NCBI GenBank assembly: GCA_037481815.1
Contig: JBBFKX010000002.1
Span: forward strand, 128,001 to 192,000
Direction: 5' to 3'
Length of the DNA stretch: 64,000 bases
DNA from: a candidate division WOR-3 bacterium
Lineage (GTDB): Bacteria > Hydrothermota > 32-111
Position numbers and translations under genes: made by a program. Under the pieces are notes generated by a model. It was given only the letters and a program-made list of their open reading frames with translations. It did not search any database and was not told the origin of the DNA. Shown piece after piece: positions 15,439-44,017 of this stretch (the first letter of the stretch is position 1; the number at the start of each line of letters is the position of its first letter).

Positions 15439-15447
15439 AATGCTCTC

Positions 15448-15876: not shown

Positions 15877-15885
15877 CTTTCCTCC

Positions 15886-16323: not shown

Positions 16324-16335
16324 ATTATCTCCTGA

Positions 16336-17005: not shown

Positions 17006-17033
17006 ATTATACTTTCTAATCCAATTTTGTCAA
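17006..17033 (-). promoter_or_regulatory. Promoter of exbB-exbD-exbD-tonB
   Basis: TTGACA-16 nt-TATAAT. Confidence 0.65.
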
Positions 17034-17773: not shown

Positions 17774-17783
17774 ATCTCCTCCA

Positions 17784-18461: not shown

Positions 18462-18468
18462 TTCCCCC

Positions 18469-19239: not shown

Positions 19240-20116
19240 TCACCCCTTCTTTATTTAAAAGTTCCCTGTATTTTTTCTTTGCTATCATCCCCCCAAGTTC
19301 CTCAACTCCTTTTTCAAGAACCTTTTCAAAAAGAATCTTTTTCATATTTCTGATCTTCGCTTCATCCAAAAATCTGTCAGCACTTTCATCTATTTCAATC
19401 ATTTCATCTTTAAATTTTAGAAGACCACCAATCGTTTCGAACCCAGAATTTGTTAAAACATCAACTATGAAATGGAACCAATCTTTTGTGTTAGTGTTTT
19501 TGACTGCAAAAGTATCAAGAATATTGTTTAGACTCTGTTTGAATTCATTCCTGATATTTTCAACAAATGATTTATCAAAGATCAGTCCTTTTGAGATAAG
19601 ATACTCGAGAGATTTATATGATTCAAGCAGAGGAAGGTTGCTCTCCTTGATTATGGTTCTTATATTCTTTTTACCATCAACTATCCTTATTATAACCCAA
19701 TCAGTTTTTCTTAAACTTATATTATCACCAAGACCCTCAGCTCTCTTTTCAAGAACAGCATCAAAAGATGGTAACCTTTTTAGTATATCATCGAATTCGA
19801 TTCTTCTTTTTTCTATCTGGTCCATCAAAGATGATGTATTCGACTGTGTTATCGAAACCTCATCTGTTGTTTCCCCATTTTTATACAAAACTGTCCCGAT
19901 CCTTTCAATCGAGAGATTATACAATGCCTCTTCACCTGTGAAAGAGTTGTAAACAGCATGTTTTGGTAAACCTTTTTCAAAAAATATTTTTCCCTCTTTG
20001 TTATCGATCTGAAAAATCAAAACACCGGTTCTCTCTCTCGATGATATCAAACTTATGAACTCAACTGGACTGAAGATCTCAAGATTAGCTTTTAAATCTA
20101 CCTTTTCTTTATCCAT
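19223..20116 (-). CDS. DUF4388 (PatA-N-like) domain protein
   Basis: LKANLEIFSPVEFISLISSRERTGVL...GKIFFEKG...GEEALY; winged-helix-like IVDGKKNIRTII. Confidence 0.85.
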   Translation of the reverse strand: MDKEKVDLKANLEIFSPVEFISLISSRERTGVLIFQIDNKEGKIFFEKGLPKHAVYNSFTGEEALYNLSIERIGTVLYKNGETTDEVSITQSNTSSLMDQIEKRRIEFDDILKRLPSFDAVLEKRAEGLGDNISLRKTDWVIIRIVDGKKNIRTIIKESNLPLLESYKSLEYLISKGLIFDKSFVENIRNEFKQSLNNILDTFAVKNTNTKDWFHFIVDVLTNSGFETIGGLLKFKDEMIEIDESADRFLDEAKIRNMKKILFEKVLEKGVEELGGMIAKKKYRELLNKEGVSDGSF

Positions 20117-20844
20117 TCCTCATCCTTATATTTTTGAATTAAATTTTGCAACTCTTCATCTTCAAAATCTAATTCAACTTCTTCCCATTCAAAATCTAAC
20201 TCCCTAAAAAAAATATTATAAAACAAAGAAGACATATTTTCGATATTATAAGTTAAACCTGTTAAATTTTCAATATTGTTTGAAAAATTTTTTCCATAAA
20301 TTTTTTCCTGAGAAACAACACTCTCTTTTACAAGAATCGTTCCCTGTTGCAAAAAATTTGTTTCTGAGAACATCTGTGCACTTCCAACGATCTTTTCTCC
20401 ATTATAACTGATTTCATATACCGATTGCGATCCAAAGCAGTTTGCTATAAAATTTTCTTTTTTTTCTCCCTGTGTTAGTTTCGCTTCTATTCCGAGTTCT
20501 TTGAAACCTTTGATAAAAATCTCCGCTATCTTTTTATACCTGTCTAAAAGTCCATGATTTTTTCCAAAATGTTCGATGTTTCCAGCAAAGGAATATGTCA
20601 GATCACCACTGTGGAGAACCGCCCTTCCGCCTGTTATTCTTCTTGTGATATCAATTTTTTCCTTTACAACATAATCGTAATCGATACCAACATTGTATCT
20701 TTGATTGTACCCTATGGTAATCGACGGTTTTGAAAATGAATAAAATCTAAAAAATATTGTATCAATATTTTTATAAGCCCATTCATCTATAGCCATATTT
20801 GTATAGACATCAAAAACAGAGTAATCCAAAAAATAACCTTTCAT
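20098..20844 (-). CDS. Lipoate-protein ligase family, short LipM-like octanoyltransferase
   Basis: NMAIDE, RFYSFSKPSITIG, RRITGGRAVLH, ANCF (candidate catalytic Cys), KIVGSAQ; no LplA C-domain. Confidence 0.88.
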   Translation of the reverse strand: MKGYFLDYSVFDVYTNMAIDEWAYKNIDTIFFRFYSFSKPSITIGYNQRYNVGIDYDYVVKEKIDITRRITGGRAVLHSGDLTYSFAGNIEHFGKNHGLLDRYKKIAEIFIKGFKELGIEAKLTQGEKKENFIANCFGSQSVYEISYNGEKIVGSAQMFSETNFLQQGTILVKESVVSQEKIYGKNFSNNIENLTGLTYNIENMSSLFYNIFFRELDFEWEEVELDFEDEELQNLIQKYKDEEWIKKR

Positions 20845-21458
20845 TTTAAAATTTTAAGCCAGTCAGATAAAAGGAAATAGATTCTTCCGATAAGAAGTGA
20901 AATACGTGCCATCACAGTATAACCAAAAGATGCACCGAATGCAACCATGATAAAGGTTATTCCTATTTTTGAGCCCCATTTTAAAACACCTTTCTGCTCT
21001 TTTGAAAAATAGAAGTAGATAAGGGTTGTTAAAACTCCAAAGATTATCAAAAAGTTGTTAAAAGTTTCAAAATTGAAACCTGTGATTGGAACAAGTGTTG
21101 CTTGAACCTGTGGAAGTATAAAACCCTGTATCGCACCTGTAACCCCAAGTCCCGCTCCAATACCCACAGTGAAAGCGATAGACCATCTTGAAAGCCATGC
21201 GATGTTTGGAAACCATCTCGTCAACATGATTATTCCAAAAAATGCTGGAATAAGCAAAACAAACTCTTTGTTTTTAATCATCGGATCAAGGAGCATCGGT
21301 TGTATAACATAAGCCCAGGTATAAATAAGCCAATAGCCCGCTGTTATTCCAACATAGAGATGTTCTGCAAATTTATAGAAAGGGTTATCCTTATACAGAA
21401 AGGAATATATAAAAAGGGTCAAACCAGCAGCTATCCAGATTCCTATCGTTGTTCCCAT
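20841..21458 (-). CDS. Uncharacterised multi-TM protein, subunit D copy 2
   Basis: About 6 TM; YSFLYKDNPFYKFAE and FIMVAFGAxFGYT shared with 24252-24857. Confidence 0.85.
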   Translation of the reverse strand: MGTTIGIWIAAGLTLFIYSFLYKDNPFYKFAEHLYVGITAGYWLIYTWAYVIQPMLLDPMIKNKEFVLLIPAFFGIIMLTRWFPNIAWLSRWSIAFTVGIGAGLGVTGAIQGFILPQVQATLVPITGFNFETFNNFLIIFGVLTTLIYFYFSKEQKGVLKWGSKIGITFIMVAFGASFGYTVMARISLLIGRIYFLLSDWLKILK

Positions 21459-22294
21459 TATTTTCCTCCTTCTTTACTTTTTGTTCTCTTTTCAATAAAA
21501 TATGCTATGTTTCCTAAAATGATGAAAAGTATTATAACAAGATGTGAATATGACTGTGATGCCATTCCAGCAACAGCTAAATCTGGTTTACCAACAAGCA
21601 CTTCATATTCAGCAGCTCCCTTCATTCCACCAACGAGTCCAACGATCTGGCCTGATTGATAGAAATAGTAAGCATCTGGAGCAGAAACAGCGTTTAAAGC
21701 GAGTGCTATTTTCTGTTTGAATCTTCCCCCTGCATATTCGATCCAGACAAGATAAGTTGCTCCCGCTTCAAGACCGACAAGGAGTGCTATATCGTTATAG
21801 TTATGAACATTCTTCATCATCGGAAAAGAATCGAGAGGAACATTTCTGTAATCAACTTTGAAATAATCCCTTATCTCCTTTCCAATTCCAACTATCTGTG
21901 CAACATAACCAGGTCTATATCCAAGGTTGATATAGTCGACTCCATATTTAGCACCCATCTCTTTTGCGATCTTTTCAAGACCCATCGTTCCAAGAGGTGC
22001 CCCCAGTTGCCATTGAACTATAAGAATTGGTTTCAATTTATTTCTAAAGAGTTGTCTTAAAAGTGCTTCTAAAAATGGCTGCTGCTCTGGCATCGATGCT
22101 GCATCATAATCTATGGATATCATCACATTGCTTCCCTCTGGTAAATTTTCGATATAGTTGTAAACATCCTTTACTGGCTGTGAGGGAACAACTGGAAATT
22201 TTGGTTTTAGAAGTAAAGGTAAAATCACAACTATTGCAATGAATATATATATGAACCTTCTATCGACTTTTAAAAGTTTTAGAAAGATATTCAT
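21458..22294 (-). CDS. Uncharacterised membrane-anchored alpha/beta protein, subunit C copy 2
   Basis: N- and C-terminal TM; DYD, GLVGGMKGAAEYE, IILGNIAYF shared with 24857-25723. Confidence 0.85.
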   Translation of the reverse strand: MNIFLKLLKVDRRFIYIFIAIVVILPLLLKPKFPVVPSQPVKDVYNYIENLPEGSNVMISIDYDAASMPEQQPFLEALLRQLFRNKLKPILIVQWQLGAPLGTMGLEKIAKEMGAKYGVDYINLGYRPGYVAQIVGIGKEIRDYFKVDYRNVPLDSFPMMKNVHNYNDIALLVGLEAGATYLVWIEYAGGRFKQKIALALNAVSAPDAYYFYQSGQIVGLVGGMKGAAEYEVLVGKPDLAVAGMASQSYSHLVIILFIILGNIAYFIEKRTKSKEGGK

Positions 22295-22303
22295 AATAAC
22301 TCC

Positions 22304-22942
22304 TTATGAAAGATAACTTCTTTCAATACCTAAAATTATTCTTATTGAAACACCTAAAGCACCAAGGGAAATTCCAAGACCAATACCTCTTTTTGCAGCC
22401 ATCTGTGGAACCTGCATGATCCATTCCGTAAACTTTGGAAGATAAGGTGAAATCTGTTCTCCAAGAGGAACCCTTCCAAGCATAACTATTATCGCTGTGA
22501 TCAGAAGAAGTGTTGCATCAAAATTTCTCGCTCTAAAAGCTCTGTATGCGGCCGATGCTATAAAGAAAGCGAGCAGTGAAAACATCGTCGTCTGAAGTGG
22601 AACTATAAAATAGTTATATATGTATGTAAAATATGACTTATCATCAAACGCTGTTCCAAACCTGACAGTTTCTATTATTCCAACAACTACTGTTGCAACA
22701 AAACCAAAAATCAATACAAGTGAAAAGAACCAGTTCTCATCTTTCCTTTTAACCTTTCTAAAATGCATACCTATCAAAGAATCAACTCCAAGAAGCATTG
22801 TAAAACCTGCAATTATCGAATACCAGTTCAAAGAAATTTTTTCTATATCACCAAAAGGTTTATGTGGAATAAAAAAAGAAACGATCATGATCATGCCAAC
22901 AAGAAAGGTTATAAAAATCGGGATACCTTTTCCTTTTAACAT
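22304..22942 (-). CDS. Uncharacterised multi-TM protein, subunit B copy 2
   Basis: FSLLAFFIASAAYRAFRARNFDATLLL...GRVPLG...ILGIER shared with 25720-26397. Confidence 0.85.
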   Translation of the reverse strand: MLKGKGIPIFITFLVGMIMIVSFFIPHKPFGDIEKISLNWYSIIAGFTMLLGVDSLIGMHFRKVKRKDENWFFSLVLIFGFVATVVVGIIETVRFGTAFDDKSYFTYIYNYFIVPLQTTMFSLLAFFIASAAYRAFRARNFDATLLLITAIIVMLGRVPLGEQISPYLPKFTEWIMQVPQMAAKRGIGLGISLGALGVSIRIILGIERSYLS

Positions 22943-22953
22943 TTATCCTCCTA

Positions 22954-24243
22954 CTATACCTGTAACAAATTGATCAACCAATCGAATACACTTTTTAACA
23001 CTTCTATCTTAAACCCATATCCTAAAACTGAAAGAACAAAACCTATGATGATCAAAAACATAATAAAAACTTTTAAAAGATCCTCAGCCGCTATTGAACC
23101 AAGCATCATCGGTTCTTTCTGTAAATAAACTGAAGCAGCCATCATCTCTTCACCAATAAGAGTGTAATCACAAGCTGCAACAAAGAATGGTAACTGTGCT
23201 GTTTCTGTTGTTCCAGATATCTGTATTGCACCTATCGAATGTCCGGTTTCAGCAAGGATCAAAGATTCTGCAAAGAAAAGCCCCTGTAAAAACACAGCAC
23301 CCGGCTTTTCTCTCATCATCATACCATCAACTCCAGCAGCATATCCGAACTGATCCTGTGTTATATACATTATATCGTTTTTGTTGTAAAGATCGGGTCT
23401 TCCAGCCTCTGTAAAAGCCTCCTTCACAACTTCCTGTGCTGTTGTCATAACAACTGGATCATAGGAAGGAACAAGAATCCTCGTTTCATAATCGGCGACC
23501 TTTTTCGCGACTCTTCCAAGAATCGTCAGACCCGCTATCGTTGGTATATCGGTTACATATCCTATCCCCAGGATATACATGATAGGTTTTCCCATCTCTG
23601 TACTTCTTCCAACCGCTTCTTCAACAGCATCAAGTCCGTTTATTTTTCTTATATAAAGATCTTTTCCACTCTTTGCAAGGTTCAAATAATATAAAAATAC
23701 AAAAGCGATTATGATTAAAGAAACAAGAACAGGTATCCTTGAAAGATTAAACCATGATGATTTTGAAACTATCGCTTCTGTCTCTCCTGTTATGTAAAAA
23801 GTATCGTTTCCAAATATATAAGTACCGTTTTTTAAATATTCTGATCCATTTGAAATCAGTTTGTTTAAAAACTGTTCGTTGATCATGTTTTGGCTCAAAA
23901 TTCCCGTGTAATAATAATTCGTATTATCCTTTACTCTTGAGGGTTCCTCTTCAGAACTAACATCTCTTACCTGCATCGAAGAGACGAGAAGATCTGTTGC
24001 AACAACCATTAAATTGTTTGAATCATCCCTTCTTAAAACAGTTAGAAACCAGTTTCCCAAAGAATCAGGAAAACACCAGTTGATCTGGATTCCTCCACCA
24101 CCATCGTTCGGTATATCGTTTCCTGTAAGTTTAAAATCCAAAAAAGGGTTTTGGTTTTCTAAAAAGATTAAACTATCATTTTCCTGAGAAAAGAGAAAAA
24201 CTGAAAAAACTAAAAAAATCAAAAGAAGGGTTTTTTTTAACAC
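22954..24243 (-). CDS. DUF6754-like protein, subunit A copy 2 (signal peptide, Fn3-like ectodomain, TM, alpha/beta domain, TM)
   Basis: IRKINGLDAVEEAVGRSTEMG, QFGYAA, AESLILAE, QLPFFVAACDYTLIGEEMMAASVYL. Confidence 0.8.
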   Translation of the reverse strand: MLKKTLLLIFLVFSVFLFSQENDSLIFLENQNPFLDFKLTGNDIPNDGGGGIQINWCFPDSLGNWFLTVLRRDDSNNLMVVATDLLVSSMQVRDVSSEEEPSRVKDNTNYYYTGILSQNMINEQFLNKLISNGSEYLKNGTYIFGNDTFYITGETEAIVSKSSWFNLSRIPVLVSLIIIAFVFLYYLNLAKSGKDLYIRKINGLDAVEEAVGRSTEMGKPIMYILGIGYVTDIPTIAGLTILGRVAKKVADYETRILVPSYDPVVMTTAQEVVKEAFTEAGRPDLYNKNDIMYITQDQFGYAAGVDGMMMREKPGAVFLQGLFFAESLILAETGHSIGAIQISGTTETAQLPFFVAACDYTLIGEEMMAASVYLQKEPMMLGSIAAEDLLKVFIMFLIIIGFVLSVLGYGFKIEVLKSVFDWLINLLQV

Positions 24244-24251
24244 CTCTCCTC

Positions 24252-24857
24252 CTATTTAATAATTCCAAGCCAATCGGACAGAAGAAACTGAATTCTACCG
24301 ATGAAAAGGGAAACCCTCGCCATAATCGTATAACCGAACGCTGCACCAAATGCAACCATTATGAATGTGATTCCCACTTTCGAGACCTTTCCTACAAAAC
24401 CTTTATGTTCGAGTGAAAAGAAAAAATAAACAAGAGTTGAAATAACTCCAACAACTATGATCAAACTTCCAACATCAAGTTTCAACGGCATCGTTGCATA
24501 GATCTGTTTGAAGAGAAACTCAAAAGAGGATGGAACCGAAAGCCCTGTTCCCGCTCCAACAACAAACGCTATCGGTATCCTTGAAAGATATGCAACATTC
24601 TTGAAAAATCTTGAAAACATTAAAAGACCTAAAATAAGCGGTATAAGAACAAGAAAATTTTTATCATAAACAAGTGGATTGAAAACTTTTGTGATTATCG
24701 TATTATGCCAGTAAACAGATATTCCATAACCTATCGAGATTCCAACAAGCAGGTATTCTGCAAACTTATAGAAGGGATTATCTTTATATAAAAATGAATA
24801 GATTGCAAGAGTGAGTAATGCAGCTATCCATATCCAGATATTTGTTGATATAGCCAT
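24252..24857 (-). CDS. Uncharacterised multi-TM protein, subunit D copy 1
   Basis: Paralogue of 20841-21458. Confidence 0.85.
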   Translation of the reverse strand: MAISTNIWIWIAALLTLAIYSFLYKDNPFYKFAEYLLVGISIGYGISVYWHNTIITKVFNPLVYDKNFLVLIPLILGLLMFSRFFKNVAYLSRIPIAFVVGAGTGLSVPSSFEFLFKQIYATMPLKLDVGSLIIVVGVISTLVYFFFSLEHKGFVGKVSKVGITFIMVAFGAAFGYTIMARVSLFIGRIQFLLSDWLGIIK

Positions 24858-25723
24858 TATTTACCCTCCTTTTTCTTCTTAACAAAATATGCAATATTAC
24901 CAAGTATTATCAAAATTATAAAAAAGATGTGTGCTGATGATTGAGCATCCATCCCTATTGAAGCATCCTTTCTTCCTCCATAAACATTTTTCTTACCAAG
25001 TAAATGTTCATACTCAGCAGCACCTTTAAGACCTCCAAGCATTCCTATTGCCTGTTTTGATTGTAGATATGAATAATACTCTGCTGCTGAAACTGCGGTT
25101 GTTCCAATTCCCATTTTTAAACCATATCTGCCATTTGCATAAATGAGCCATGTTAAAACAACAGAACTTCCCGCGAGTTCAACCATCAGATTTATGTCTT
25201 TATAATTTTTTATTCCATTCATTATTTCAAGTTCAGAAAGTTTATTCCCATAACCATCCTCATTAAAAGTTTGTGTAATGTCCTCTCCCATCTTCAAAAC
25301 TACAGCACTGACTCCAGGAACATAAGCAAGAAGTGTTATATCCTTTCCAAGTTTTTTTGGATTATCGGGATTACTCTTGTTCCACTCTCTTAAAACGTTA
25401 TCTATAGCATCCTGAGCCATTCCAGCACCCTGTGGATAAAGTGTCACAAAAAGAACCCTTAAATTGTTTGATAGTGCATGTGCTGCGATAACTTTTGCCA
25501 TCGGATGGAGTTCAGCCATCGTTGAAGGATCATAATCAGCACCAATAAGAACGACTCCACCTTCAGGAATCGAATCTTCTATAAAATCGTAGATCGATTT
25601 TACAGGAGGTGTTGTTTTCATTGGAAATCCTACGGGAAATATGAAAGGAATGATTATGCACAAAGCGAGCACAAGATAGATCCATCTTTTATCGAGATTG
25701 TTGATAAAGTTGATAAATTTCAT
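24857..25723 (-). CDS. Uncharacterised membrane-anchored alpha/beta protein, subunit C copy 1
   Basis: Start MKFINF at an ATGA overlap (trimmed from 25849); GMLGGLKGAAEYE. Confidence 0.85.
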   Translation of the reverse strand: MKFINFINNLDKRWIYLVLALCIIIPFIFPVGFPMKTTPPVKSIYDFIEDSIPEGGVVLIGADYDPSTMAELHPMAKVIAAHALSNNLRVLFVTLYPQGAGMAQDAIDNVLREWNKSNPDNPKKLGKDITLLAYVPGVSAVVLKMGEDITQTFNEDGYGNKLSELEIMNGIKNYKDINLMVELAGSSVVLTWLIYANGRYGLKMGIGTTAVSAAEYYSYLQSKQAIGMLGGLKGAAEYEHLLGKKNVYGGRKDASIGMDAQSSAHIFFIILIILGNIAYFVKKKKEGK

Positions 25724-26397: not shown

Positions 26398-26405
26398 ATT
26401 AACTC

Positions 26406-27611
26406 CTAACTTTTGAATATGAATCTTAACATTTCAAGAATCTTATCAAGAAAAACTATATGCCCGCCGGTTAACCATGAAATTAAGAGAATGAAGAAAT
26501 AAAGAGTGATCAAAATTATTATAAATCCTTTGAAATAATCCTGAGCTTTCAAAGTTCCAAGAAGTAGTGGCTCTCTCGAAAGGTAAGCACTTGCAGCGTA
26601 AAGTTCTTCTCCGATTATCGTGTAATCACAAGAGGTGATAAAGAAAGGAAGTTGAGTCACAGCATCAGTACCTGCGATCTGAATAGCACCAGTTGTGTTT
26701 CCTGCTTCAGCCATGATAAGTGATTCAGCCCAGAACATTCCAAGTAAAAGGTTTGTTGCTGGCCTTTCTCTTGTCATGATACCTGAAACAGCAGCAGCAT
26801 AACCAAACTGTGAGTCGGTTAAGAAGAAAATATCGTTATCGTTGTAAACATCAGGTCTTCCCGCCTCTGAATAAGATTCCTTCACTACCTCTTTTGCAAC
26901 AGTCATAACTATTGGGTCCCTGTTTGGAACGATCAGTTTTGTTTCATACTCTGCTATCTTTTTCGCAACAGGACCAAGGATATTCAAAGAAGCGATTGTG
27001 GCAATATCTGACATCGTTGAAGATCCGGGGACATACAAAACAGGTCTTCCCATTTCGGTTGCTCGTCCAACCGCCTCATCGAGTGTATCAAGTCCGGAGA
27101 TTTTTCTAACAAAAAGATCTTTTCCCTTTCTTACACTCTCAACGAGAAAAACGATTATCGCAGTGTAAACTATTATCATCAAAAGCAATATGGTCTTTTC
27201 AGTTCTGAACAGGTTCGGTTTTGGAGATACAGAACCTGTGATCAAACATTTTTCAGATTCGTTACCCAAACTATCGGTTACTGAGATATAGTAGTCATAT
27301 TTTTTCTGATAAGATAACCCTTCATCCACTATCTTTACAGGAAATGAGTTGAAAGTTTTTACAACTTTTAAAGTTGTATCGTTTTCCTCTTTTCTGTAAA
27401 GTTTGAAAAGATAATTTTCACCCTCAAGAATTTTTTGACAGGAAATTTCAAGTTTTGTTCCATCATCGTCTCTCACATCCTTTATGGTGAACTCTTTTAA
27501 AATTGCTGGATCAAGTTTTAAACCATTTTCATCTTTAACTGTTTCATTCTGAGGGAAAGATAAAACAAACGATAGAAGGATTAAGATGAAAAAGAAGATT
27601 TTGTTTTTCAT
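26406..27611 (-). CDS. DUF6754-like protein, subunit A copy 1
   Basis: VRKISGLDTLDEAVGRATEMG, QLPFFITSCDYTIIGEELYAASAYL; Fn3-like YDYYISVTDSLGNES. Confidence 0.8.
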   Translation of the reverse strand: MKNKIFFFILILLSFVLSFPQNETVKDENGLKLDPAILKEFTIKDVRDDDGTKLEISCQKILEGENYLFKLYRKEENDTTLKVVKTFNSFPVKIVDEGLSYQKKYDYYISVTDSLGNESEKCLITGSVSPKPNLFRTEKTILLLMIIVYTAIIVFLVESVRKGKDLFVRKISGLDTLDEAVGRATEMGRPVLYVPGSSTMSDIATIASLNILGPVAKKIAEYETKLIVPNRDPIVMTVAKEVVKESYSEAGRPDVYNDNDIFFLTDSQFGYAAAVSGIMTRERPATNLLLGMFWAESLIMAEAGNTTGAIQIAGTDAVTQLPFFITSCDYTIIGEELYAASAYLSREPLLLGTLKAQDYFKGFIIILITLYFFILLISWLTGGHIVFLDKILEMLRFIFKS

Positions 27612-27621
27612 TTGACTCCTT

Positions 27622-28743
27622 TTATTCCTCGATTAATTCTACATTCGCTCTTGGAAGTATTATCCTTTTACCATCTTCAAATTCAAACTCAAGAACTCTG
27701 ACATGTGCTTCTGTTTCTATTTTTTGCAACTGTGAAGGAAGTCCAACAACTCTTCCAATCGCACCAAAATATGGTTGTCTTATGATTCTGACTATAGAGT
27801 TTATGTCCATTCCCATCTCAGCATGTTTTGATTCTTCAACAACAGTATCTATATCATATGTTACGATAACTTCCGGTCTCATAACACCAGCTCTTATCTG
27901 TGTTGCCCCATTTATAGATGCTCTTTTTCCATCATTTTTTGAAAGTATTTCAAAAGTTTTCTTTGCCATCGTCATCTTACCAAAACCTTCCGTAACGATA
28001 ACAGTGATTCCCTTTTCCTCCTGACCGGTTATCGCAACACCTATCTCTTCACCAAGGAAATCTTTAAGATCCTTATCATCTATACCACCAACAACTATTC
28101 CCAGAACACCTTTCTTTACACACTCGTTCAAAACTTCACTCGTCACAAGAGAACCACCGATAACAATCTTTCCTTTCAGTTCATCTGTGATATCATTCTT
28201 TGTCAGAATATAGTCAGGTGATTTTGCAACGAGTTTCAACTCTCCCTTAACCTCTCCACCGATTCCAAATATTCCCTGAATGAATGTTGCTGGTGTTTGA
28301 ACAACTATTCCTTCATTTTCGATAACTTCAACAACTTTTCCGTTAACATAAGCATCGATTTCAACTTTTTTTGGTGGTTTTCTCAACGTCAACATTCCCG
28401 TTATATCAGAATAGTTTTCAACTATTCCCTCTATCGGAGAAGGAATCGAAGTTTTGAAAAGTCCAAAGAATCCTTTTGATTCTGCTATTATCTGATCCTT
28501 TTTTATCTTTTCACCTATCGATACCTTTAAAAACGAAGAAGCTTCTTTTGGTGGTACTCCAAGTTTTCCAGCAAGATTCAATCTTTCAACATCTCCAGGA
28601 AGTTCTGTTCTTGCAACTATATCGTCCGCCTTTACTATGTCTCCAACTTTTACAAGAACCTCACCTTTTAAAGGTAATCTTCTCTCCTTCTTTACTATCG
28701 CTTTTTCAGTAACTTTTAAACCAGGTGTATATGAATGTGCCAT
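27622..28743 (-). CDS. Conserved hypothetical protein with barrel-sandwich hybrid (biotinyl/lipoyl-like) motifs and SH3/KOW-like C-terminus
   Basis: GEVLVKVGDIVKADDIVA, VSIGEKIKKDQIIA, SPIEGIV, AYVNGKVVEV; C-terminal IVRIIRQPYFGAIGRV...PRANVE. Confidence 0.75.
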   Translation of the reverse strand: MAHSYTPGLKVTEKAIVKKERRLPLKGEVLVKVGDIVKADDIVARTELPGDVERLNLAGKLGVPPKEASSFLKVSIGEKIKKDQIIAESKGFFGLFKTSIPSPIEGIVENYSDITGMLTLRKPPKKVEIDAYVNGKVVEVIENEGIVVQTPATFIQGIFGIGGEVKGELKLVAKSPDYILTKNDITDELKGKIVIGGSLVTSEVLNECVKKGVLGIVVGGIDDKDLKDFLGEEIGVAITGQEEKGITVIVTEGFGKMTMAKKTFEILSKNDGKRASINGATQIRAGVMRPEVIVTYDIDTVVEESKHAEMGMDINSIVRIIRQPYFGAIGRVVGLPSQLQKIETEAHVRVLEFEFEDGKRIILPRANVELIEE

Positions 28744-28754
28744 AATTCCTCCAT

Positions 28755-30548
28755 TTATTTCTCAGGATAGACATTTAACGCTTTAATCCATTTTTTCAAC
28801 TTCTCTACCCTTTCATTATCGTTTTCAGGCAGATTGAAAGGTCTTCTTCCTCTTGCATCTACAATAACTCCAACAACTCCACCTTCAAGTTCCGCTTCAA
28901 TCTCTTTACCTTTACCGTTTCCAAGATCGAGCCCTTTTGATGGAGTGATAATCGCTTTTACCTTTTTGTTGAGTTCAAGAGGAATAACTCCCATATCACC
29001 AAAATTGAAACTATACTCTTTTCCGTCAAATTTTATCTTTACAGCTTCCTGCCCCTCTTTTATGTTTCCAATCGGTGCAACACATGAACCCAATCTTATC
29101 AAGCAGTCCTTTTCAAAAACTTCAGTTGCTGCCTGTTCATGTACTGTTGACAGAACACCAAGTTGTGGCATCATGAATATAGAATCAACCGTTAACATCG
29201 TTATCCCTTCAGGTAAAAATGCATCTATCATCATCAAAGCCGACTGCACTCTTCTTGGAGCATGAGAAAGAACACCACCTGAACCTACTATAAGATTCAA
29301 TGTTAACATGTTCACGAGTGTCTCTCCTGTACTCGTCTGTTCAAAAGCATCTGAAATTGTTCTTTCCTTCTGGACTCCTTTTAACCCAACAGCCATCGTC
29401 TTGTGCTGTTCTAATGCCAATCTCAACGCTTCTCTTGATATCGCCTGCTCTATCTGTAATTCATCAAGAGTTGATGGAATCGTTGTTGGTCTTATCATCT
29501 TATTTCTTATCCTGTTCCTTAAATCCTTTTCATCCATGTGAAATGGAACCCATCTCATTATATTTTTTAAACCTGCTTCTTTCACAACATTTGAAATTGA
29601 GTAACTCATACCAAGGTTAGCAGAAACGGTTCTGTTGAAGGTATTCTGAAAGTATGAGAATACATCAGTGGTTGCTCCTCCGATATCAACGCCAAGCACT
29701 TCTATCTTATCCCTTTTACCAATAGTTTCAATAAGAAGTCCAACAGCACCTGGTGTTGGCATAATCGGAACGTCGGTCATATCCATAAGTTTTTTGTATC
29801 CTGGTGCCTGAGCCATAACATGTTCCATAAAAAGATCATGAATCTTATCCCTTGCTGGCTTCAAATTTTCCTTTTCAAGTGTTGGTCTCAGATTTTCAAC
29901 TATGTAAAGTGCGGTTTTCTTTTCGAGTCGTTCTTTTATTTCTTCAACAGCTTTGTTGTTTCCAGCATAGATAACGGGAAGTTTGTATCCGGCGCCAAAT
30001 CGTGGTTTCGGATCAGCTGCCTGTATTATTTCAGCGAGTTGAACGACATGTGTTATCGTTCCTCCATCTGTTCCACCTGAAAGAAGAATCATGTCAGGCC
30101 TTAAAGTTCTGATCCTTTTTATTCTCTCATGATCCATCCTTTTATCGTTTGTAGCTATAACATCCATCACTATCGATCCAGCACCCAGTGCAGCTCTTGC
30201 CGCTGATTCTGCTGACATTTTATCTACAACACCAGCAACCATCATCTGTAAACCACCACCCGCTGAAGATGTTGATATATAAATATCGACACCATCACCT
30301 TCTGCTTTATCTCTTTTTATTATTTTGTCTCCATCAAGGATTTTTATCTCAGCAAGTTCTTCGACCTCTTTTATAGCGTTGAGTACACCTTTTGTAACAT
30401 CCTCATATGGTGCCTCAACAGTTGTTGGTGCCTCACCTCTAACTATTAAACGATACTCGTTATCTCTTTTCTCTATTAAAATAGCTTTCGTTGTGGTGGA
30501 TCCACAATCGGTTGCAAGTATTCGTATGATTTGATCCTTCTCTTTCAT
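28755..30548 (-). CDS. GlmL/MutL (glutamate mutase L)-family ASKHA ATPase
   Basis: TDCGSTTTK (phosphate 1), STSSAGGGL, LLSGGTDGG, MPTPGAV, VDIGGATTDVFS (phosphate 2), GSGGVLSH. Confidence 0.88.
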   Translation of the reverse strand: MKEKDQIIRILATDCGSTTTKAILIEKRDNEYRLIVRGEAPTTVEAPYEDVTKGVLNAIKEVEELAEIKILDGDKIIKRDKAEGDGVDIYISTSSAGGGLQMMVAGVVDKMSAESAARAALGAGSIVMDVIATNDKRMDHERIKRIRTLRPDMILLSGGTDGGTITHVVQLAEIIQAADPKPRFGAGYKLPVIYAGNNKAVEEIKERLEKKTALYIVENLRPTLEKENLKPARDKIHDLFMEHVMAQAPGYKKLMDMTDVPIMPTPGAVGLLIETIGKRDKIEVLGVDIGGATTDVFSYFQNTFNRTVSANLGMSYSISNVVKEAGLKNIMRWVPFHMDEKDLRNRIRNKMIRPTTIPSTLDELQIEQAISREALRLALEQHKTMAVGLKGVQKERTISDAFEQTSTGETLVNMLTLNLIVGSGGVLSHAPRRVQSALMMIDAFLPEGITMLTVDSIFMMPQLGVLSTVHEQAATEVFEKDCLIRLGSCVAPIGNIKEGQEAVKIKFDGKEYSFNFGDMGVIPLELNKKVKAIITPSKGLDLGNGKGKEIEAELEGGVVGVIVDARGRRPFNLPENDNERVEKLKKWIKALNVYPEK

Positions 30549-30877
30549 TTATCCTCCTTAATATCCTTCTTGTTTCTCTTATGAGTATTTTCAACTTCTT
30601 CTATATATTTTATAAGTTTTTCAACAGAATCTCTTTCTTCAAAGATTAAAGATGCTTCGCGGTATTCCGATATGTTGAAAAATGTCAAAATTATCGGTTC
30701 GAGAAAAATCATTATTTGAGCACTGATAAAATTCATCGGTTTTATCGATTCAAGAAACATTATCGCCGGAGCAGTCAGTCCTCTTTTGACTATACTTTCG
30801 GCAATCTTTTTTAAAATCTCCTCTTTTCTTTCAAGAGGTATCTCTTTCGGACTTACGGGTTGAAAACTCTTATCCAT
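30545..30877 (-). CDS. Conserved hypothetical small protein
   Basis: KIAESIVKRGLTAPAIMFLESIKP; overlaps both neighbouring genes. Confidence 0.75.
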   Translation of the reverse strand: MDKSFQPVSPKEIPLERKEEILKKIAESIVKRGLTAPAIMFLESIKPMNFISAQIMIFLEPIILTFFNISEYREASLIFEERDSVEKLIKYIEEVENTHKRNKKDIKEDK

Positions 30878-32321
30878 TATTTTCCCTGTACCAGTTCACA
30901 TAAAGATTTTTTAAAGCGTATATATCATCAGGCCTCGAAACCGGAGTGTTTGAAGGAGCGTTTTTAACTTTTTCAGGTTCGTTTTTCGATTCCTCATCTA
31001 TACTTTTCATAGCATCTATAAAGCCATCGAGTGTTTCTTTTGATTCGGTTTCAGTTGGCTCTATCATGATCGCCTCAGAAACTATAAGGGGGAAATAAAC
31101 TGTTGGTGCATGGAATCCATAATCGAGTAAACATTTGGCTATATCAAGTGTTGTTACATTGTAATCCTTTTTATGTTTTCTTCCACTGAAAACAACCTCA
31201 TGCATCGTTTCTGTTTTATATGGTAGATCGTAAATATCAAGAAGTTTCCTTTTGATATAATTTGCATTCACTATGGCCATCTCGGTTGCTTCTTTTAATC
31301 CATCACTTCCCATTATTTTAAGATACGCCCATGCTCTCACCATTATGTTCACATTACCATAAAACGAATGCAATGAACCTATCGAGTTTTTAGGATAATC
31401 AAGAAAATATTTTCCATTTTCAAATTTCACAATGTAGGGTGGTAAAAATTCTTTCAAACTCTCAACTACCGCAACACCACCTGCACCAGGTCCACCGCCA
31501 CCATGTGGTGTTGAAAAGGTCTTGTGTAGATTTAGATGCAGAATATCAAAACCTATTTTCCCTGGTTTTACTATTCCCATTAGAGCGTTCATGTTTGCAC
31601 CATCCATATATATAAGTCCACCTTTTCCATGAACTATTTCAGAAATCTTTTCGATTTTACTTTCAAAAATCCCCAAGGTGTTGGGATTGGTTATCATTAT
31701 CCCTGCGGTATCCTCATCCATATTTTTTTCAAGATCTTCAAGATCTATTTCACCTGAACTGTCCGACTTTATCTGTACAGATCTAAACCCTGACAGAGTT
31801 GCCGAAGCAGGATTTGTTCCATGCGCTGAATCAGGAATTAAAATCTTTGATCTTTTTTCACCTTTACTTTTAAAGTAATCGCTTATGATCATCATCCCGG
31901 CGAACTCACCATGAGCACCTGCAACTGGTTGTAGAGAAATCCCATCAAAACCTGTAACCTTCAAAAGCATATCCTGCAATTCATACATTATTTCAAGTAT
32001 GCCCTGAACATCCTCTTCATCCTGATAGGGATGAAGTTTTGTAAATTTTGGATTTGAAGAGATCTCTTCATTTACAACAGGATTGTATTTCATCGTACAT
32101 GATCCTAAAGGATAAAAACCTTTCTGAAGATGATGGTTTTTATTCGATAATAAAACAAAATGTCTCAACACATCGATTTCTGATACTGTTGGGAGATTCG
32201 GTTCATCTTTTCTGAGATTTTCTTTGATACAATTTGAAACCTCAAGGGGAAAATTATTTTCAGGTAAAGATACAATATTTGAATTTTCATCTGACAACTT
32301 GAATATCAATCTATCATACAT
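30870..32321 (-). CDS. gcvPB: Glycine dehydrogenase (decarboxylating) subunit 2
   Basis: YPLGSCTMKYNP, PDSAHGTNPASA, HLNLHKTFSTPHGGGGPG (PLP Lys), IEPTETESKE. Confidence 0.96.
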   Translation of the reverse strand: MYDRLIFKLSDENSNIVSLPENNFPLEVSNCIKENLRKDEPNLPTVSEIDVLRHFVLLSNKNHHLQKGFYPLGSCTMKYNPVVNEEISSNPKFTKLHPYQDEEDVQGILEIMYELQDMLLKVTGFDGISLQPVAGAHGEFAGMMIISDYFKSKGEKRSKILIPDSAHGTNPASATLSGFRSVQIKSDSSGEIDLEDLEKNMDEDTAGIMITNPNTLGIFESKIEKISEIVHGKGGLIYMDGANMNALMGIVKPGKIGFDILHLNLHKTFSTPHGGGGPGAGGVAVVESLKEFLPPYIVKFENGKYFLDYPKNSIGSLHSFYGNVNIMVRAWAYLKIMGSDGLKEATEMAIVNANYIKRKLLDIYDLPYKTETMHEVVFSGRKHKKDYNVTTLDIAKCLLDYGFHAPTVYFPLIVSEAIMIEPTETESKETLDGFIDAMKSIDEESKNEPEKVKNAPSNTPVSRPDDIYALKNLYVNWYRENNG

Positions 32322-32351
32322 AATCTGCTCCTTAAAATTTTTTAAAGAATT

Positions 32352-32380
32352 ATTTTATATTATTAAGATAATAATGTCAA
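32352..32380 (-). promoter_or_regulatory. Promoter of the gcvPB-led operon
   Basis: TTGACA-17 nt-TAAAAT. Confidence 0.7.
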
Positions 32381-43950: not shown

Positions 43951-43989
43951 TTAAAACCTCCTGAAAAAAGAGCAGAATTTTAGTTTTTC

Positions 43990-44017
43990 ATTTTATCAAA
44001 AAAAAGTTTTTTGTCAA
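43990..44017 (-). promoter_or_regulatory. Promoter upstream of the TPR lipoprotein-rplM-rpsI block
   Basis: TTGACA-16 nt-TAAAAT with TGn extension. Confidence 0.6.

What the first reader, a model, noticed from the sequence alone, without database searches (positions are those of the whole stretch)
20098..32380. Uncharacterised membrane machine: orphan GlmL-type ASKHA ATPase, lipoyl-like protein and a duplicated four-subunit membrane complex, bracketed by gcvPB and a LipM-type ligase
Seen: one promoter (32352-32380) heads a tightly packed run of gcvPB, a small ORF, a GlmL/MutL ATPase, a 373-aa hybrid-motif protein, A1-B1-C1-D1, A2-B2-C2-D2 and a lipoyl/octanoyl ligase. Genes overlap or are about 10 nt apart. 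Established: GlmL/MutL proteins normally accompany B12 mutases (glutamate mutase, ornithine aminomutase) as putative reactivases; no mutase gene is in this window. Inference: the ATPase and the hybrid-motif protein form a shared cytoplasmic module that energises two paralogous membrane complexes. This could be a novel non-ABC ATP-driven transporter or an energy-conserving step tied to glycine or amino-acid catabolism. Best candidate for an undescribed system here.
Basis: partly seen in the sequence, partly recalled or inferred. Interest (0 to 1): 0.88.

Follow-up and report, generated by a model that had tools for sequence, protein, structure and literature searches.

The report
Uncharted actin-fold ATPase membrane machine
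This operon encodes a widely conserved but undescribed cell-membrane machine, built from an actin-fold ATPase, a three-domain partner protein and two sets of four membrane proteins, that nearly every member of several uncultured bacterial phyla carries and whose job is still unknown.

Summary
The A-D duplication is real (35-54% identity). The operon does not end at 20098; it runs on to at least 17037.

Core of the system: a small hydrophobic protein, a GlmL/MutL-family ASKHA ATPase (597 aa), a 373-aa partner protein, and four membrane proteins A-D. Only A has a Pfam family (DUF6754). The partner has three domains: an NqrA/RnfC-type barrel-sandwich, a swivelling domain and a KOW barrel.

Main evidence:
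- The order is kept across distant lineages.
- ATPase and partner are one fused ~1000-aa protein in about 50 clusters.
- DUF6754 and the partner co-occur in 131 of 151 genomes of the phylum, and both are missing from one genus (15 of 15).
- The genome has one ATPase/partner pair; genomes of the phylum have 1-6 DUF6754 copies.
- No glutamate mutase gene was found in the genome.
- No solved structure matches A, C or the ATPase, and no paper was found.

Function is inferred only. Envelope genes (ExbBD-TonB, Wzi-like, Wza-like, OmpA-like) recur as neighbours, so my best guess is an ATP-driven machine acting on the cell envelope. The "lipoyl-like" label and the link to glycine catabolism are weak.

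The parts
32352..32380 (-). Promoter-like site upstream of gcvPB (TTGACA-17-TAAAAT).
   Evidence: 11 of 12 consensus matches, in the 149-nt gap before gcvPB. This is a consensus match only.
30870..32321 (-). gcvPB, glycine dehydrogenase subunit 2. It is the only copy in the genome and is split from gcvT-gcvH-gcvPA.
   Evidence: NF003346, 700 bits (cut-off 441); gcvT-gcvH-gcvPA lie about 205 kb away on the same contig. The adjacency gcvPB-small ORF-ATPase recurs in families f1, f4, f7 and f11 and in L016/L017.
30545..30877 (-). Small 110-aa protein with one hydrophobic stretch (residues 51-69). It is a conserved partner gene just upstream of the ATPase and a possible membrane tether.
   Evidence: no Pfam family; hydrophobic segment; found upstream of the ATPase in 11 of the 20 first loci and in both unlinked loci L039 and L041. 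Its end overlaps the ATPase start by 4 nt.
28755..30548 (-). GlmL/MutL-family ASKHA ATPase, 597 aa, with a C-terminal extension of about 115 aa.
   Evidence: PF13941, E 5e-128, covering residues 10-482; below the cut-offs of all three curated GlmL models; the nucleotide-binding motifs D14xGSTxTK, TSSAGGG, D288xGGATTD and GxGG are invariant in 19 of 19 sequences; single copy in the genome.
27622..28743 (-). 373-aa three-domain partner of the ATPase: barrel-sandwich hybrid (about 10-125), swivelling beta/beta/alpha domain (about 130-300) and KOW/SH3-like barrel (about 305-373). Its N-terminal peptide M-A-H-x-Y-T-P-G-L-x-V is highly conserved.
   Evidence: AF2 model, pLDDT 82.5. RnfC 8ahx_C Z 7.2, NqrA 4u9o Z 7.1, Enzyme I 2wqd Z 9.3, RraA Z 8.8, KOW domains Z 7.5-8.6. 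H3 in 28 of 29 and TPGL in 29 of 29; fused to the ATPase in other lineages.
26406..27611 (-). A1: signal peptide, FN3-like ectodomain, TM helix, cytoplasmic DUF6754 domain, TM helix.
   Evidence: DUF6754, E 5e-117; hydrophobic segments 1-19, 140-158 and 362-380; residues 36-133 match FN3 domains with Z about 10; the second half of DUF6754 is poorly modelled.
25720..26397 (-). B1: polytopic membrane protein, 225 aa, in no Pfam family.
   Evidence: It is 45% identical to B2.
24857..25723 (-). C1: 288 aa, with TM helices at both ends and a domain of about 220 aa between them. The domain is periplasmic by the positive-inside rule. No Pfam family.
   Evidence: It is 35% identical to C2; no solved relative at E<=1.
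24252..24857 (-). D1: polytopic membrane protein, 201 aa, in no Pfam family.
   Evidence: It is 54% identical to D2; a profile of the family finds 2791 cluster representatives at E<=1e-3; 2 of the best 150 are C-D fusions.
22954..24243 (-). A2: second DUF6754 protein, 429 aa, with a different ectodomain.
   Evidence: DUF6754, E 3e-112; 41% identical to A1, and the identity is concentrated in the DUF6754 part.
22304..22942 (-). B2.
21458..22294 (-). C2.
20841..21458 (-). D2.
   Evidence: In the tree, D2-type proteins from 11 WOR-3 families fall on one side of a branch (support 86/89, not starred).
20098..20844 (-). Lipoate/octanoate-protein ligase family protein, 248 aa, catalytic domain only.
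   Evidence: PF21948, E 7e-27; below all NCBIfam cut-offs; one of two BPL_LplA_LipB genes in the genome. It follows D2 also in L053 (f6), L062 (f7) and L094 (f19).
17037..20116 (-). Continuation of the operon: a DUF4388 protein (19223-20116), two proteins of no family (18469-19239 and 17784-18461) and two small three-TM proteins (17384-17773 and 17037-17387).
   Evidence: The same five genes follow D2 or the ligase in L007-L010, L025 and L026. In L063 (f14) four of them follow D2, with a 195-aa ORF where the 225-aa gene lies here; in L090 (f24) all five do.
14821..16962 (-). ExbB-ExbD-ExbD-TonB cluster. It has its own 12-of-12 promoter-like site (17033-17006) and a strong terminator (14797-14769). 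It is a recurrent neighbour of set 2.
   Evidence: The same four genes follow set 2 in L063, L090 and L094, and lie upstream of the sets in L012.

Best explanation
The locus encodes a conserved, undescribed multi-subunit machine of the inner membrane.

Cytoplasmic module. It consists of a GlmL/MutL-family ASKHA ATPase and its 373-aa partner (NqrA/RnfC-type barrel-sandwich, swivelling domain, KOW barrel), probably with the small hydrophobic 110-aa protein. There is one such module per genome.

Membrane modules. The cytoplasmic module serves one to several four-subunit modules A-B-C-D. In each:
- A exposes a variable FN3-type ectodomain outside and the strongly conserved DUF6754 domain inside.
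- C contributes a periplasmic domain.
- B and D form the membrane core.

Most likely mechanism. ATP binding and hydrolysis in the ASKHA module is passed to the membrane module through the partner protein. The candidate contact elements are its conserved N-terminal peptide and the hydrophobic KGFFGLFK loop. This drives work in the cell envelope: export, insertion or tethering of an outer-membrane or surface component. The two ancient paralogous membrane sets would serve different envelope partners (Ton-type for set 2, Wzi/Wza-type for set 1).

Shown: the parts, their conservation, the ATPase-partner fusion, the co-occurrence, and the intact ATP-binding motifs.

Inferred: physical docking of the soluble module on A-D, the direction and nature of the work, and the envelope target.
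For: Synteny. The order small ORF-ATPase-partner-A-B-C-D is contiguous in 8 of the 20 loci from public genomes. Four more loci have an extra ORF between ATPase and partner. The loci come from records labelled TA06, WOR-3-like, 'Desulfuromonas SDB', Planctomycetota and Brocadiia.

ATPase and partner are one unit:
- About 50 of the 120 listed long homologues are MutL+partner fusions of about 1000 aa at 43-51% identity and 99-100% coverage. One was read and confirmed.
- Paralogous pairs are fused in L049, L050 and L051.
- The pair stays together where A-D are elsewhere.

Co-occurrence in 151 genomes of the phylum: both DUF6754 and the partner present in 131, both absent in 15 (all 15 of one genus), DUF6754 alone in 4, partner alone in 1. 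MutL is found in 0 of 15 genomes of that genus and in 5 of 5 sister genera.

Copy number. G000 has one MutL gene and one partner gene, and most sampled genomes have one partner copy. DUF6754 is present in 1-6 copies.

The ATP-binding motifs are invariant in 19 of 19 sequences.

A-D form a unit:
- In 40 further loci, A is present in 40, C in 38, and B and D in 37 each, in the same order.
- 2 of the best 150 D-family proteins are C-D fusions.

Envelope neighbours:
- ExbB-ExbD-ExbD-TonB lies next to set 2 in f1, f14, f19 and f24, and upstream of the sets in L012.
- A Wzi-like outer-membrane protein lies right after D1 in 13 of 40 loci.
- A Wza-like SLBB protein lies right before A1 in 4 of 40 loci.
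- A PD40 propeller and an OmpA-family protein lie inside the Brocadiia locus.

Topology and the variable or giant ectodomains of A.
Against: - No result shows transport, export or any activity.
- No fold or sequence match links A-D to a known transporter or envelope machine.
- The envelope neighbours differ between lineages, and such genes are common in these genomes. The genus that lost the system keeps Wzi-like, LptFG and MreB genes, so no dependence is shown.
- The most widely conserved neighbour in this phylum is gcvPB, a metabolic gene.
- Paralogues of the ATPase-partner pair carry HTH domains, which suits a sensor or regulator as well as a motor.
- In some genomes the partner gene stands alone.
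- Co-loss rests on a single genus, that is, one evolutionary event.
Confidence: 0.4

Rival explanations
1. Solute importer. A-D is a new type of primary-active uptake system, with C as a periplasmic binding-type domain. It is powered by the ASKHA module and takes up amino acids, peptides or compounds that Ton-dependent receptors bring into the periplasm.
For: - The parts list looks like a binding-protein-dependent importer: periplasmic domains on A and C, two polytopic subunits, and a cytoplasmic ATPase shared among several membrane sets.
- Ton clusters are adjacent to it.
- It is co-transcribed with gcvPB in four families.
Against: - C has no match to any solute-binding family, and B and D have none to any permease family.
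- The variable FN3 ectodomains of A, up to about 1000 aa long, are unusual for a solute importer.
- Near-universal presence, with sequence identity of about 55-65% across phyla, suits a housekeeping machine better than a substrate-specific carrier.
Confidence: 0.2
2. Energy-converting complex tied to glycine cleavage. The partner's barrel-sandwich domain would work as a carrier or coupling element between GcvP and a membrane ion pathway in A-D. This would be analogous to the biotin-dependent Na+-pumping decarboxylases. The ligase at the operon end would modify it.
For: - gcvPB, the only copy in the genome, heads the operon here. It is adjacent to the ATPase-partner pair in f1, f4, f7 and f11 and in L016/L017, even where A-D lie elsewhere.
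- A lipoate-ligase-family gene follows D2 in four families.
- The partner's N-terminal domain has the lipoyl/biotinyl-type fold, with a lysine (K90) after strand 85-88.
Against: - K90 is K in only 24 of 29 sequences and K97 in 27 of 29, so no lysine is invariant.
- The Biotin_lipoyl match is below its cut-off.
- The genus that lost the system keeps gcvPB: all 15 genomes match, 13 of them over the cut-off.
- The Planctomycetota-type loci have no gcvPB.
- GcvH is present, and it is the only strong lipoyl-protein candidate that I found, so the ligase has an ordinary client.
- The role of an ATPase in a decarboxylation-driven pump is unexplained.
Confidence: 0.08
3. No physical coupling. The ATPase-partner pair is a soluble enzyme or chaperone, like the proposed reactivase role of GlmL or the ASKHA-plus-swivelling-domain reactivase DdrA. 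A-D is a separate membrane protein set that merely shares an operon and a phyletic range with it.
For: - The pair is unlinked from A-D in several genomes, and in G153 and G011 the partner stands alone.
- Paralogous pairs and fusions occur with no A-D next to them.
- No docking was demonstrated.
- From recall: the diol dehydratase reactivase combines an ASKHA ATPase domain with a swivelling domain.
Against: - Synteny with A-D is kept in very distant lineages.
- Co-presence and co-loss: 131 both present, 15 both absent, 5 discordant, out of 151.
- A divergent second pair sits directly upstream of A-D in G009.
- No glutamate mutase gene was found in the genome; the aminomutase search rang nowhere and is uninformative. 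Its acyl-CoA mutase subunit has its own MeaB chaperone.
Confidence: 0.15
4. Sensor or regulator. The ASKHA module binds a metabolite, as ROK-type ASKHA regulators do, and controls or is controlled by the membrane complex. The variable ectodomains of A would then act as sensors.
For: - Paralogues carry N-terminal HTH domains: GntR in L053, and HTH_3-type domains in several fused proteins.
- The ectodomains are variable.
- DUF4388 and chemotaxis genes lie nearby in this window.
Against: - The canonical ATPase and partner have no DNA-binding or signalling domain.
- Four conserved membrane subunits in fixed order, with strongly conserved polytopic cores, are more than a sensor needs.
- The catalytic ATP motifs are invariant.
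Confidence: 0.1

Closest known systems
GlmL/MutL, the accessory protein of glutamate (methylaspartate) mutase, and the GlmL-related ornithine-degradation protein Or-4
   Same: Same Pfam family (PF13941, E 5e-128) and the same ASKHA nucleotide-binding motifs.
   Different: - Scores fall below the curated cut-offs of all three NCBIfam models: 228.6 against 475, 217.9 against 600, and 165 against 204.
- It has an extra C-terminal domain of about 115 aa.
- No glmS/glmE was found in the genome.
- It is linked instead to the 373-aa partner, sometimes by fusion, and to membrane genes.
RnfC / NqrA, the peripheral cytoplasmic subunits of the Rnf and Na+-NQR membrane complexes
   Same: - The partner's N-terminal barrel-sandwich hybrid domain matches RnfC (8ahx_C, Z 7.2) and NqrA (4u9o, Z 7.1).
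- Some homologues carry precomputed RnfC_N or NQRA Pfam hits.
- Like them, it is a soluble subunit encoded next to several membrane subunits.
   Different: - Pfam finds no Fe-S or flavin/NADH-binding domain in it.
- The rest of the protein is a swivelling domain plus a KOW barrel.
- B, C and D have no match to Rnf/Nqr membrane subunits, even at E<=10.
- The Z scores are in the range the tool calls common.
Swivelling-domain phosphotransfer enzymes (PTS Enzyme I, PPDK, rifampin phosphotransferase) and, from recall, the diol dehydratase reactivase DdrA (ASKHA plus swivelling domain)
   Same: The partner's middle domain matches the mobile domain of Enzyme I (2wqd, Z 9.3), of rifampin phosphotransferase (Z 8.4), RraA (Z 8.8) and the AcnX small subunit (Z 8.0). 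It is paired with a nucleotide-binding module.
   Different: - No invariant histidine lies in the swivelling domain. The only near-invariant His is H3, in the N-terminal peptide.
- There is no ATP-grasp or PEP-binding domain.
- The DdrA parallel is recalled, not tested.
Mechanotransmission ABC systems of the envelope (LolCDE, LptB2FG, MacB, FtsEX)
   Same: The overall logic that I propose: a cytoplasmic ATPase, polytopic membrane subunits with sizeable periplasmic domains, and work done outside the membrane.
   Different: - There is no ABC ATPase and no FtsX/MacB or LptF/G family match.
- LptF and LptG are present in all 20 genomes tested, both with and without the system, so it does not replace them.
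- The resemblance is functional analogy only.
Biotin-dependent Na+-translocating decarboxylases (OadABG, GcdABCD)
   Same: A barrel-sandwich (biotinyl/lipoyl-type) domain protein is encoded with membrane subunits and next to a decarboxylase gene (gcvPB).
   Different: - There is no invariant carrier lysine.
- No Pfam family was found for B, C or D, hence no beta-subunit match.
- An ATPase is present, which those pumps lack.

Membership tests
GlmL (methylaspartate mutase accessory protein) / GlmL family TIGR01319 | Match to the Pfam MutL domain (PF13941). | tested here: met
   428 bits, E 5e-128, covering residues 10-482.
GlmL (methylaspartate mutase accessory protein) / GlmL family TIGR01319 | Score above the curated cut-off of the equivalog (NF040745), of Or-4 (NF040744) or of the subfamily model (TIGR01319). 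| tested here: not met
   228.6 against 475, 217.9 against 600, and 165 against 204.
GlmL (methylaspartate mutase accessory protein) / GlmL family TIGR01319 | Encoded with glutamate mutase (glmS/glmE) or with ornithine/lysine aminomutase genes. | tested here: not met
   - no Met_asp_mut_E match in the 95%-complete genome.
- no Lys-AminoMut_A match, but this search rang in no control genome, so it is uninformative.
- the B12-binding protein about 205 kb away sits with MeaB and a corrinoid adenosyltransferase, not with the ATPase.
ASKHA ATPase/kinase superfamily | Conserved PHOSPHATE 1, PHOSPHATE 2 and ADENOSINE motifs (motif names recalled). | tested here: met
   D14xGSTxTK21, D288xGGATTD295 and G422xGG425 are invariant in 19 of 19 sequences, paralogues included.
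Lipoyl/biotinyl carrier domain proteins | An invariant modified lysine at the tip of the hairpin, and a match over the Pfam cut-off. | tested here: not met
   - Biotin_lipoyl scores 20.1 bits against a cut-off of 22.1.
- K90 is K in 24 of 29 sequences (R 3, P 1, N 1), and K97 is K in 27 of 29.
Rnf / Na+-NQR complexes | RnfC/NqrA-type subunit with cofactor-binding domains, plus RnfA/D/E/G- or NqrB-E-type membrane subunits. | tested here: not met
   - only the N-terminal domain resembles RnfC/NqrA (Z about 7).
- B, C and D match no Pfam family at E<=10, and A matches only DUF6754.
ABC transporters | An ABC ATPase subunit and ABC-type permease domains. | tested here: not met
   none of the 13 proteins has an ABC_tran or permease family match.
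DUF6754 (PF20539) | Match over the gathering score. | tested here: met
   A1 scores 389.9 bits and A2 374.5 bits against a cut-off of 27. The family has no assigned function.
LipM-type octanoyltransferase versus LplA-type lipoate ligase | Assignment to a curated subtype model. | tested here: inconclusive
   - the catalytic domain PF21948 is met.
- every NCBIfam subtype model scores far below its cut-off. The best are TIGR00545 (66 against 280) and NF053750 (60.7 against 480).
Known anti-phage defence systems (PADLOC) | Match of any component to a defence-system model. | tested here: not met
   14 of 15 proteins have no match. The small ORF has one weak CARF hit (18.4 bits, E 3e-4).

The most novel reading that the evidence does not exclude
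This would be a new class of primary-active, envelope-directed membrane machine. Its motor is an actin-fold (ASKHA) ATPase joined to a swivelling-domain adaptor, not an ABC, AAA+ or P-loop ATPase. One soluble motor serves several interchangeable four-subunit membrane stators, and three of the four stator families are unknown to Pfam. The machine is a near-universal housekeeping device of WOR-3, of a second small phylum sampled here, and probably of many other FCB/PVC lineages. It split early into two paralogous stators, wired to different outer-membrane partners (Ton-type and Wzi/Wza-type).
Probability: 0.3. Interest if true: 0.92.

Novelty: categorically new. Interest (0 to 1): 0.82.

Why it matters
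If the reading holds, a whole machine of seven protein families has gone unnoticed. Four of the families have no Pfam entry, one is a DUF, and the ATPase is annotated by analogy to a mutase accessory protein of unproven function. Yet the machine is present in almost every genome of several uncultured phyla and in thousands of metagenomic proteins.

It would give the GlmL/MutL family its first context outside B12 mutases. It would also add an actin-fold ATPase to the short list of motors that power membrane complexes.

Because it is near-universal in these lineages, it probably does something basic for their envelope or physiology. That function is currently a blank in metabolic and cell-biological reconstructions of these phyla.

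The natural ATPase-partner fusions and the compact operon offer a starting point for biochemistry and cryo-EM.

Tried and rejected
Complex prediction of B+C+D with A residues 131-401 as partner. The verdict was 'no answer'.
- The score was 0.73 in all three runs.
- Controls with the partner replaced scored 0.00 and 0.31.
- The control with C replaced scored 0.75.
- The job therefore counts neither for nor against binding.

RNA evidence: no RNA holder was listed.

Cluster look-up to name the organisms behind the 2.5-4.4 Mb contigs that carry DUF6754: the database was switched off and the query could not be made. I therefore cannot say which cultured species carry the system.

Literature:
- 'DUF6754': 0 papers.
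- 'GlmL'/'ASKHA': nothing relevant among the 15 listed.
- 'GlmL' plus 'glutamate mutase': 1 paper, on mesaconase, seen as a listing only.
- 'TIGR01319', 'PF13941' or 'glutamate mutase L': 1 unrelated paper.

Solved structures by sequence:
- Single-sequence searches with the ATPase (E<=1), the partner and A1 (E<=10) gave no meaningful hit.
- Profile searches with A, C (E<=1) and the ATPase (E<=0.1) gave none. The partner profile hit only RraA, at E 0.009.

Fold search with the A1 model was filled by FN3 matches. The DUF6754 fold stays untested, because the model is below pLDDT 50 over residues 272-357.

ESM Atlas returned only the proteins' own hypothetical or DUF6754 clusters, and no structure search was possible.

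Internal homology: B against D (probability 0.4) and C against A (probability 3.3) show no relation.

Complementary-distribution idea: the system does not replace Lpt or MreB. LptF/G and MreB are present in 20 of 20 genomes of family f11, with or without the system. Wzi-like genes are also present in 20 of 20.

Roadblock idea for the two unnamed proteins after DUF4388: no Robl_LC7 match at E<=0.1 in 13 homologues. Rejected.

The 707-aa 'partner+DUF6754 fusion' (P0121) keeps A's signal peptide and FN3 domain after the partner's normal end. I take it for a read-through or gene-call artefact, not a Rosetta stone.

Neighbours of the fused paralogues (TIR, restriction-modification genes, tRNA synthetases, lipoyl synthase) show no common theme.

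Defence-system models: no real match.

Full report
WHAT IS THERE

The minus strand between 32321 and 20098 carries 13 close-packed genes:
- gcvPB
- a 110-aa ORF
- a 597-aa MutL/GlmL-family protein
- a 373-aa protein
- A1-B1-C1-D1
- A2-B2-C2-D2
- a 248-aa lipoate/octanoate-ligase-family protein

Pfam and NCBIfam confirm the named genes. gcvPB matches NF003346 at 700 bits (cut-off 441). The ATPase matches PF13941 at E 5e-128. A1 and A2 match DUF6754 at E 5e-117 and 3e-112. The ligase matches PF21948 at E 7e-27. The small ORF and B, C and D match nothing, even at E<=10.

Neighbouring genes overlap by 1-8 nt or are separated by 8-11 nt (coordinates). C1 starts at its second Met, giving 288 aa, as its homologues do. 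The two membrane sets are true paralogues: A 41%, B 45%, C 35% and D 54% identical. The promoter-like site at 32380-32352 exists (11 of 12 matches).

The left border of the finding is not an operon end. The ligase overlaps a DUF4388 gene by 19 nt, and four more genes follow tightly, down to 17037. An ExbB-ExbD-ExbD-TonB cluster comes next. It has its own perfect promoter-like site (17033-17006) and a strong terminator at 14797-14769.

THE PARTS

ATPase. It keeps the ASKHA nucleotide-binding motifs (D14xGSTxTK, TSSAGGG, D288xGGATTD, GxGG) in 19 of 19 aligned relatives and paralogues. It has a C-terminal extension of about 115 aa beyond the MutL domain. It scores below the curated cut-offs of GlmL, Or-4 and the GlmL subfamily model.

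373-aa partner. The model has pLDDT 82.5 and shows three domains:
- A barrel-sandwich hybrid domain like the N-termini of RnfC (Z 7.2) and NqrA (Z 7.1).
- A swivelling beta/beta/alpha domain like the mobile domain of PTS Enzyme I (Z 9.3), RraA (Z 8.8), rifampin phosphotransferase (Z 8.4) and the AcnX small subunit (Z 8.0).
- A KOW/SH3-like barrel (Z 7.5-8.6).

These Z values are in the range the tool calls common, so they name folds, not functions.

The lysine at the lipoyl position (K90) is K in only 24 of 29 homologues, so a covalent cofactor is unlikely as a family trait. The most conserved features are the N-terminal peptide M-A-H-x-Y-T-P-G-L-x-V (TPGL in 29 of 29, His3 in 28 of 29) and a hydrophobic loop, K-G-F-F-G-L-F-K, at the tip of the barrel-sandwich domain.

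Membrane proteins. By hydrophobicity and the positive-inside rule (my inference):
- A has a signal peptide, an ectodomain, one TM helix, the cytoplasmic DUF6754 domain and a second TM helix.
- C has a periplasmic domain of about 220 aa between two TM helices.
- B and D are polytopic.

The ectodomain of A1 is FN3-like (Z about 10). In relatives it varies and can exceed 1000 aa, and Pfam finds only fn3 or nothing in it. The DUF6754 domain was modelled poorly (pLDDT below 50 over residues 272-357), so its fold is untested. B against D and C against A show no profile similarity. They are therefore four separate families.

IT IS A SYSTEM, NOT A CHANCE NEIGHBOURHOOD

In 20 loci found in public genomes, A is always followed by B, and by C and D where the contig goes on. 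Eight loci have the contiguous order small ORF-ATPase-partner-A-B-C-D. Four more have the same order with one extra ORF between ATPase and partner. These records are labelled TA06, 'Acetofilamentum', 'Desulfuromonas SDB', Planctomycetota and Brocadiia.

In 40 further loci from the window's own phylum, A is present in 40, C in 38, and B and D in 37 each, in the same order.

ATPase and partner are one unit. Among the long homologues of the partner, about 50 listed clusters are ~1000-aa MutL+partner fusions. They are 43-51% identical to the partner over 99-100% of its length, and sources name them 'glutamate mutase L' of Neomarinimicrobiota or Planctomycetota. I read one sequence and confirmed the order. 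A more distant paralogous pair is likewise fused in three genomes of the phylum. Where A-D lie elsewhere in the genome, ATPase and partner stay adjacent.

C and D are fused in 2 of the best 150 D-family proteins.

PHYLETIC PATTERN

By the source names of close homologues, the phylum is WOR-3/Stahlbacteria-like.

| Gene (same 151-genome sample) | Genomes | Genera |
|---|---|---|
| DUF6754 | 135 of 151 | 75 of 76 |
| 373-aa partner | 132 of 151 | 74 of 76 |

Broken down by genome:
- Both present: 131.
- Both absent: 15, all of one genus (completeness 62-95%).
- DUF6754 only: 4.
- Partner only: 1.

The MutL family is found in 0 of 15 genomes of that genus and in 5 of 5 sister genera. This is one loss event, so it is suggestive rather than statistical.

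In a second, small phylum reached through locus L020, DUF6754 is in 22 of 24 genomes.

Other counts:
- A D-family profile finds 2791 cluster representatives at E<=1e-3.
- None of 14 model-organism control genomes has DUF6754.
- Most sampled genomes carry one partner copy and 1-6 DUF6754 copies, and G000 has one MutL gene.

The D tree puts D2-type proteins of 11 families of the phylum on one side of a branch (86/89, not starred). Nine families, f1, f4, f6, f7, f13, f14, f19, f21 and f24, have members on both sides. The duplication into two sets is therefore old.

THE B12-MUTASE QUESTION

The genome (1.58 Mb, 95% complete) has a single MutL-family gene and no Met_asp_mut_E match. The Lys-AminoMut_A search found nothing, but it rang in no control genome and so is uninformative. 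A B12-binding protein about 205 kb away sits with MeaB and a corrinoid adenosyltransferase, just downstream of gcvT-gcvH-gcvPA. That is an acyl-CoA-mutase-type set with its own chaperone. So the ATPase is indeed 'orphan' with respect to the mutases with which GlmL proteins are known.

NEIGHBOURS AND WHAT THEY SUGGEST

There are two kinds of recurrent neighbour.

Glycine-cleavage genes:
- gcvPB, the only copy in the genome, directly precedes the small ORF-ATPase-partner block in family f1, in f4 (where A-D are elsewhere), in all five system-bearing genera of f11 (where only gcvPB, MutL and the partner were located), and in L016/L017. In f7 two ORFs lie between them.
- The ligase follows D2 in f1, f6, f7 and f19.
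- The genome has only two BPL/LplA/LipB-family genes. GcvH is the only strong lipoyl-protein candidate that I found. The ligase therefore probably serves GcvH.
- Against a functional tie: the genus that lost the system keeps gcvPB (all 15 genomes match, 13 over the cut-off), and the Planctomycetota-type loci have no gcvPB.

Envelope genes:
- ExbB-ExbD-ExbD-TonB lies next to set 2 in f1, f14, f19 and f24, and upstream of both sets in L012.
- A Wzi-like outer-membrane protein lies directly after D1 in 13 of 40 loci.
- A Wza-like SLBB/Poly_export protein lies directly before A1 in 4 of 40 loci.
- A PD40 propeller and an OmpA-family coiled-coil protein lie inside the Brocadiia locus.

These neighbours differ between lineages, but all concern the outer membrane or the surface.

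HOW IT MOST LIKELY WORKS

Shown:
- The ATPase and partner form a soluble unit with intact ATP-binding motifs.
- A-D form a fixed four-gene membrane unit with domains on both sides of the membrane.
- The two are linked by synteny across phyla and by co-occurrence.
- One soluble unit goes with several membrane units.

Inferred: the soluble unit docks on the cytoplasmic face, and nucleotide turnover drives work in the envelope. Candidate docking sites are the DUF6754 domain or the B/D loops on the membrane side, and the partner's conserved N-terminal peptide and hydrophobic loop on the soluble side, perhaps helped by the small hydrophobic protein.

I give about 0.4 to this envelope-directed reading. 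The rivals are:
- a solute importer, 0.2
- no physical coupling, with the pair acting as a soluble enzyme or chaperone, 0.15
- a sensor or regulator, suggested by HTH-bearing paralogues, 0.1
- a glycine-decarboxylation-coupled energy converter, 0.08

The one complex-prediction job gave no verdict, so it is listed only under things tried.

COMPARISON WITH WHAT IS KNOWN

The ATPase belongs to the MutL/GlmL Pfam family, but it fails the curated GlmL models and lacks the mutase context. The partner shares single domains with RnfC/NqrA, with swivelling-domain phosphotransfer enzymes and with KOW proteins, but matches none of them as a whole. A-D match no transporter, respiratory, secretion or defence family. 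A, C and the ATPase have no solved relative. The system does not replace Lpt or MreB. Four literature searches found no description. Subscription journals and supplements are outside that library.

VERDICT

- The functional guesses are open, and the 'lipoyl' and glycine-energy readings are weak.
- The system appears to be undescribed and widespread.

Noticed in passing
window 42874-56044 (minus strand): A chemotaxis cluster: an MCP fused to an SBP_bac_5 solute-binding domain (1112 aa), CheW, CheY, CheA and CheC. It is followed by a 902-aa TPR protein, a second DUF4388 protein, three Roadblock/LC7 proteins and another TPR protein. The window thus holds two DUF4388 modules, one here and one inside the operon under study.
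   Followed up: partly
window 7165-9101 (minus strand): A PcrB-family (GGGP-synthase-like) gene overlaps a geranylgeranyl-reductase-family gene. These are the kind of genes discussed, from recall, for archaeal-type ether lipids in FCB-group bacteria.
   Followed up: no
G000:C2:355000-372000 (locus L061): The gcv operon is split. gcvT-gcvH-gcvPA lie about 205 kb from gcvPB. They are followed by a corrinoid adenosyltransferase, MeaB, a 134-aa B12-binding protein and an acyl-CoA dehydrogenase. I did not look for the large mutase subunit.
   Followed up: partly
L049:6763-9612, L050:6519-9521, L051:3798-6365, L052:4161-6949, L053:8086-11218: A second, divergent family of ATPase+partner pairs exists (28-44% identity). 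They are often fused and lack the KOW end. Some carry an N-terminal HTH: GntR in L053, and HTH_3-type domains in several database proteins. In G009 the divergent pair, not the canonical one, sits upstream of A-D.
   Followed up: partly
window 17006-17033: A perfect sigma-70-type consensus (TTGACA-16-TATAAT, 12 of 12) lies in the 74-nt gap before ExbB.
   Followed up: no
window 3686-4093 (minus strand): The peptidyl-tRNA hydrolase ORF matches only profile positions 53-183 of 183. Its start may be upstream at an unusual start codon, or the gene may be truncated.
   Followed up: no
40 WOR-3 loci L062-L101: A MazG-like ORF of about 102 aa lies directly upstream of A1 in 15 of 40 loci. In 34 of the best 150 D-family proteins, an insertion of up to about 280 aa interrupts D near profile position 130.
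   Followed up: no
window 32471-33241 (plus strand), L061:183-2078, and several related loci: Proteins with a type-IX-secretion C-terminal sorting domain (Por_Secre_tail) are frequent around these loci. The one next to the operon promoter is below the Pfam cut-off (21.4 bits against 27).
   Followed up: no
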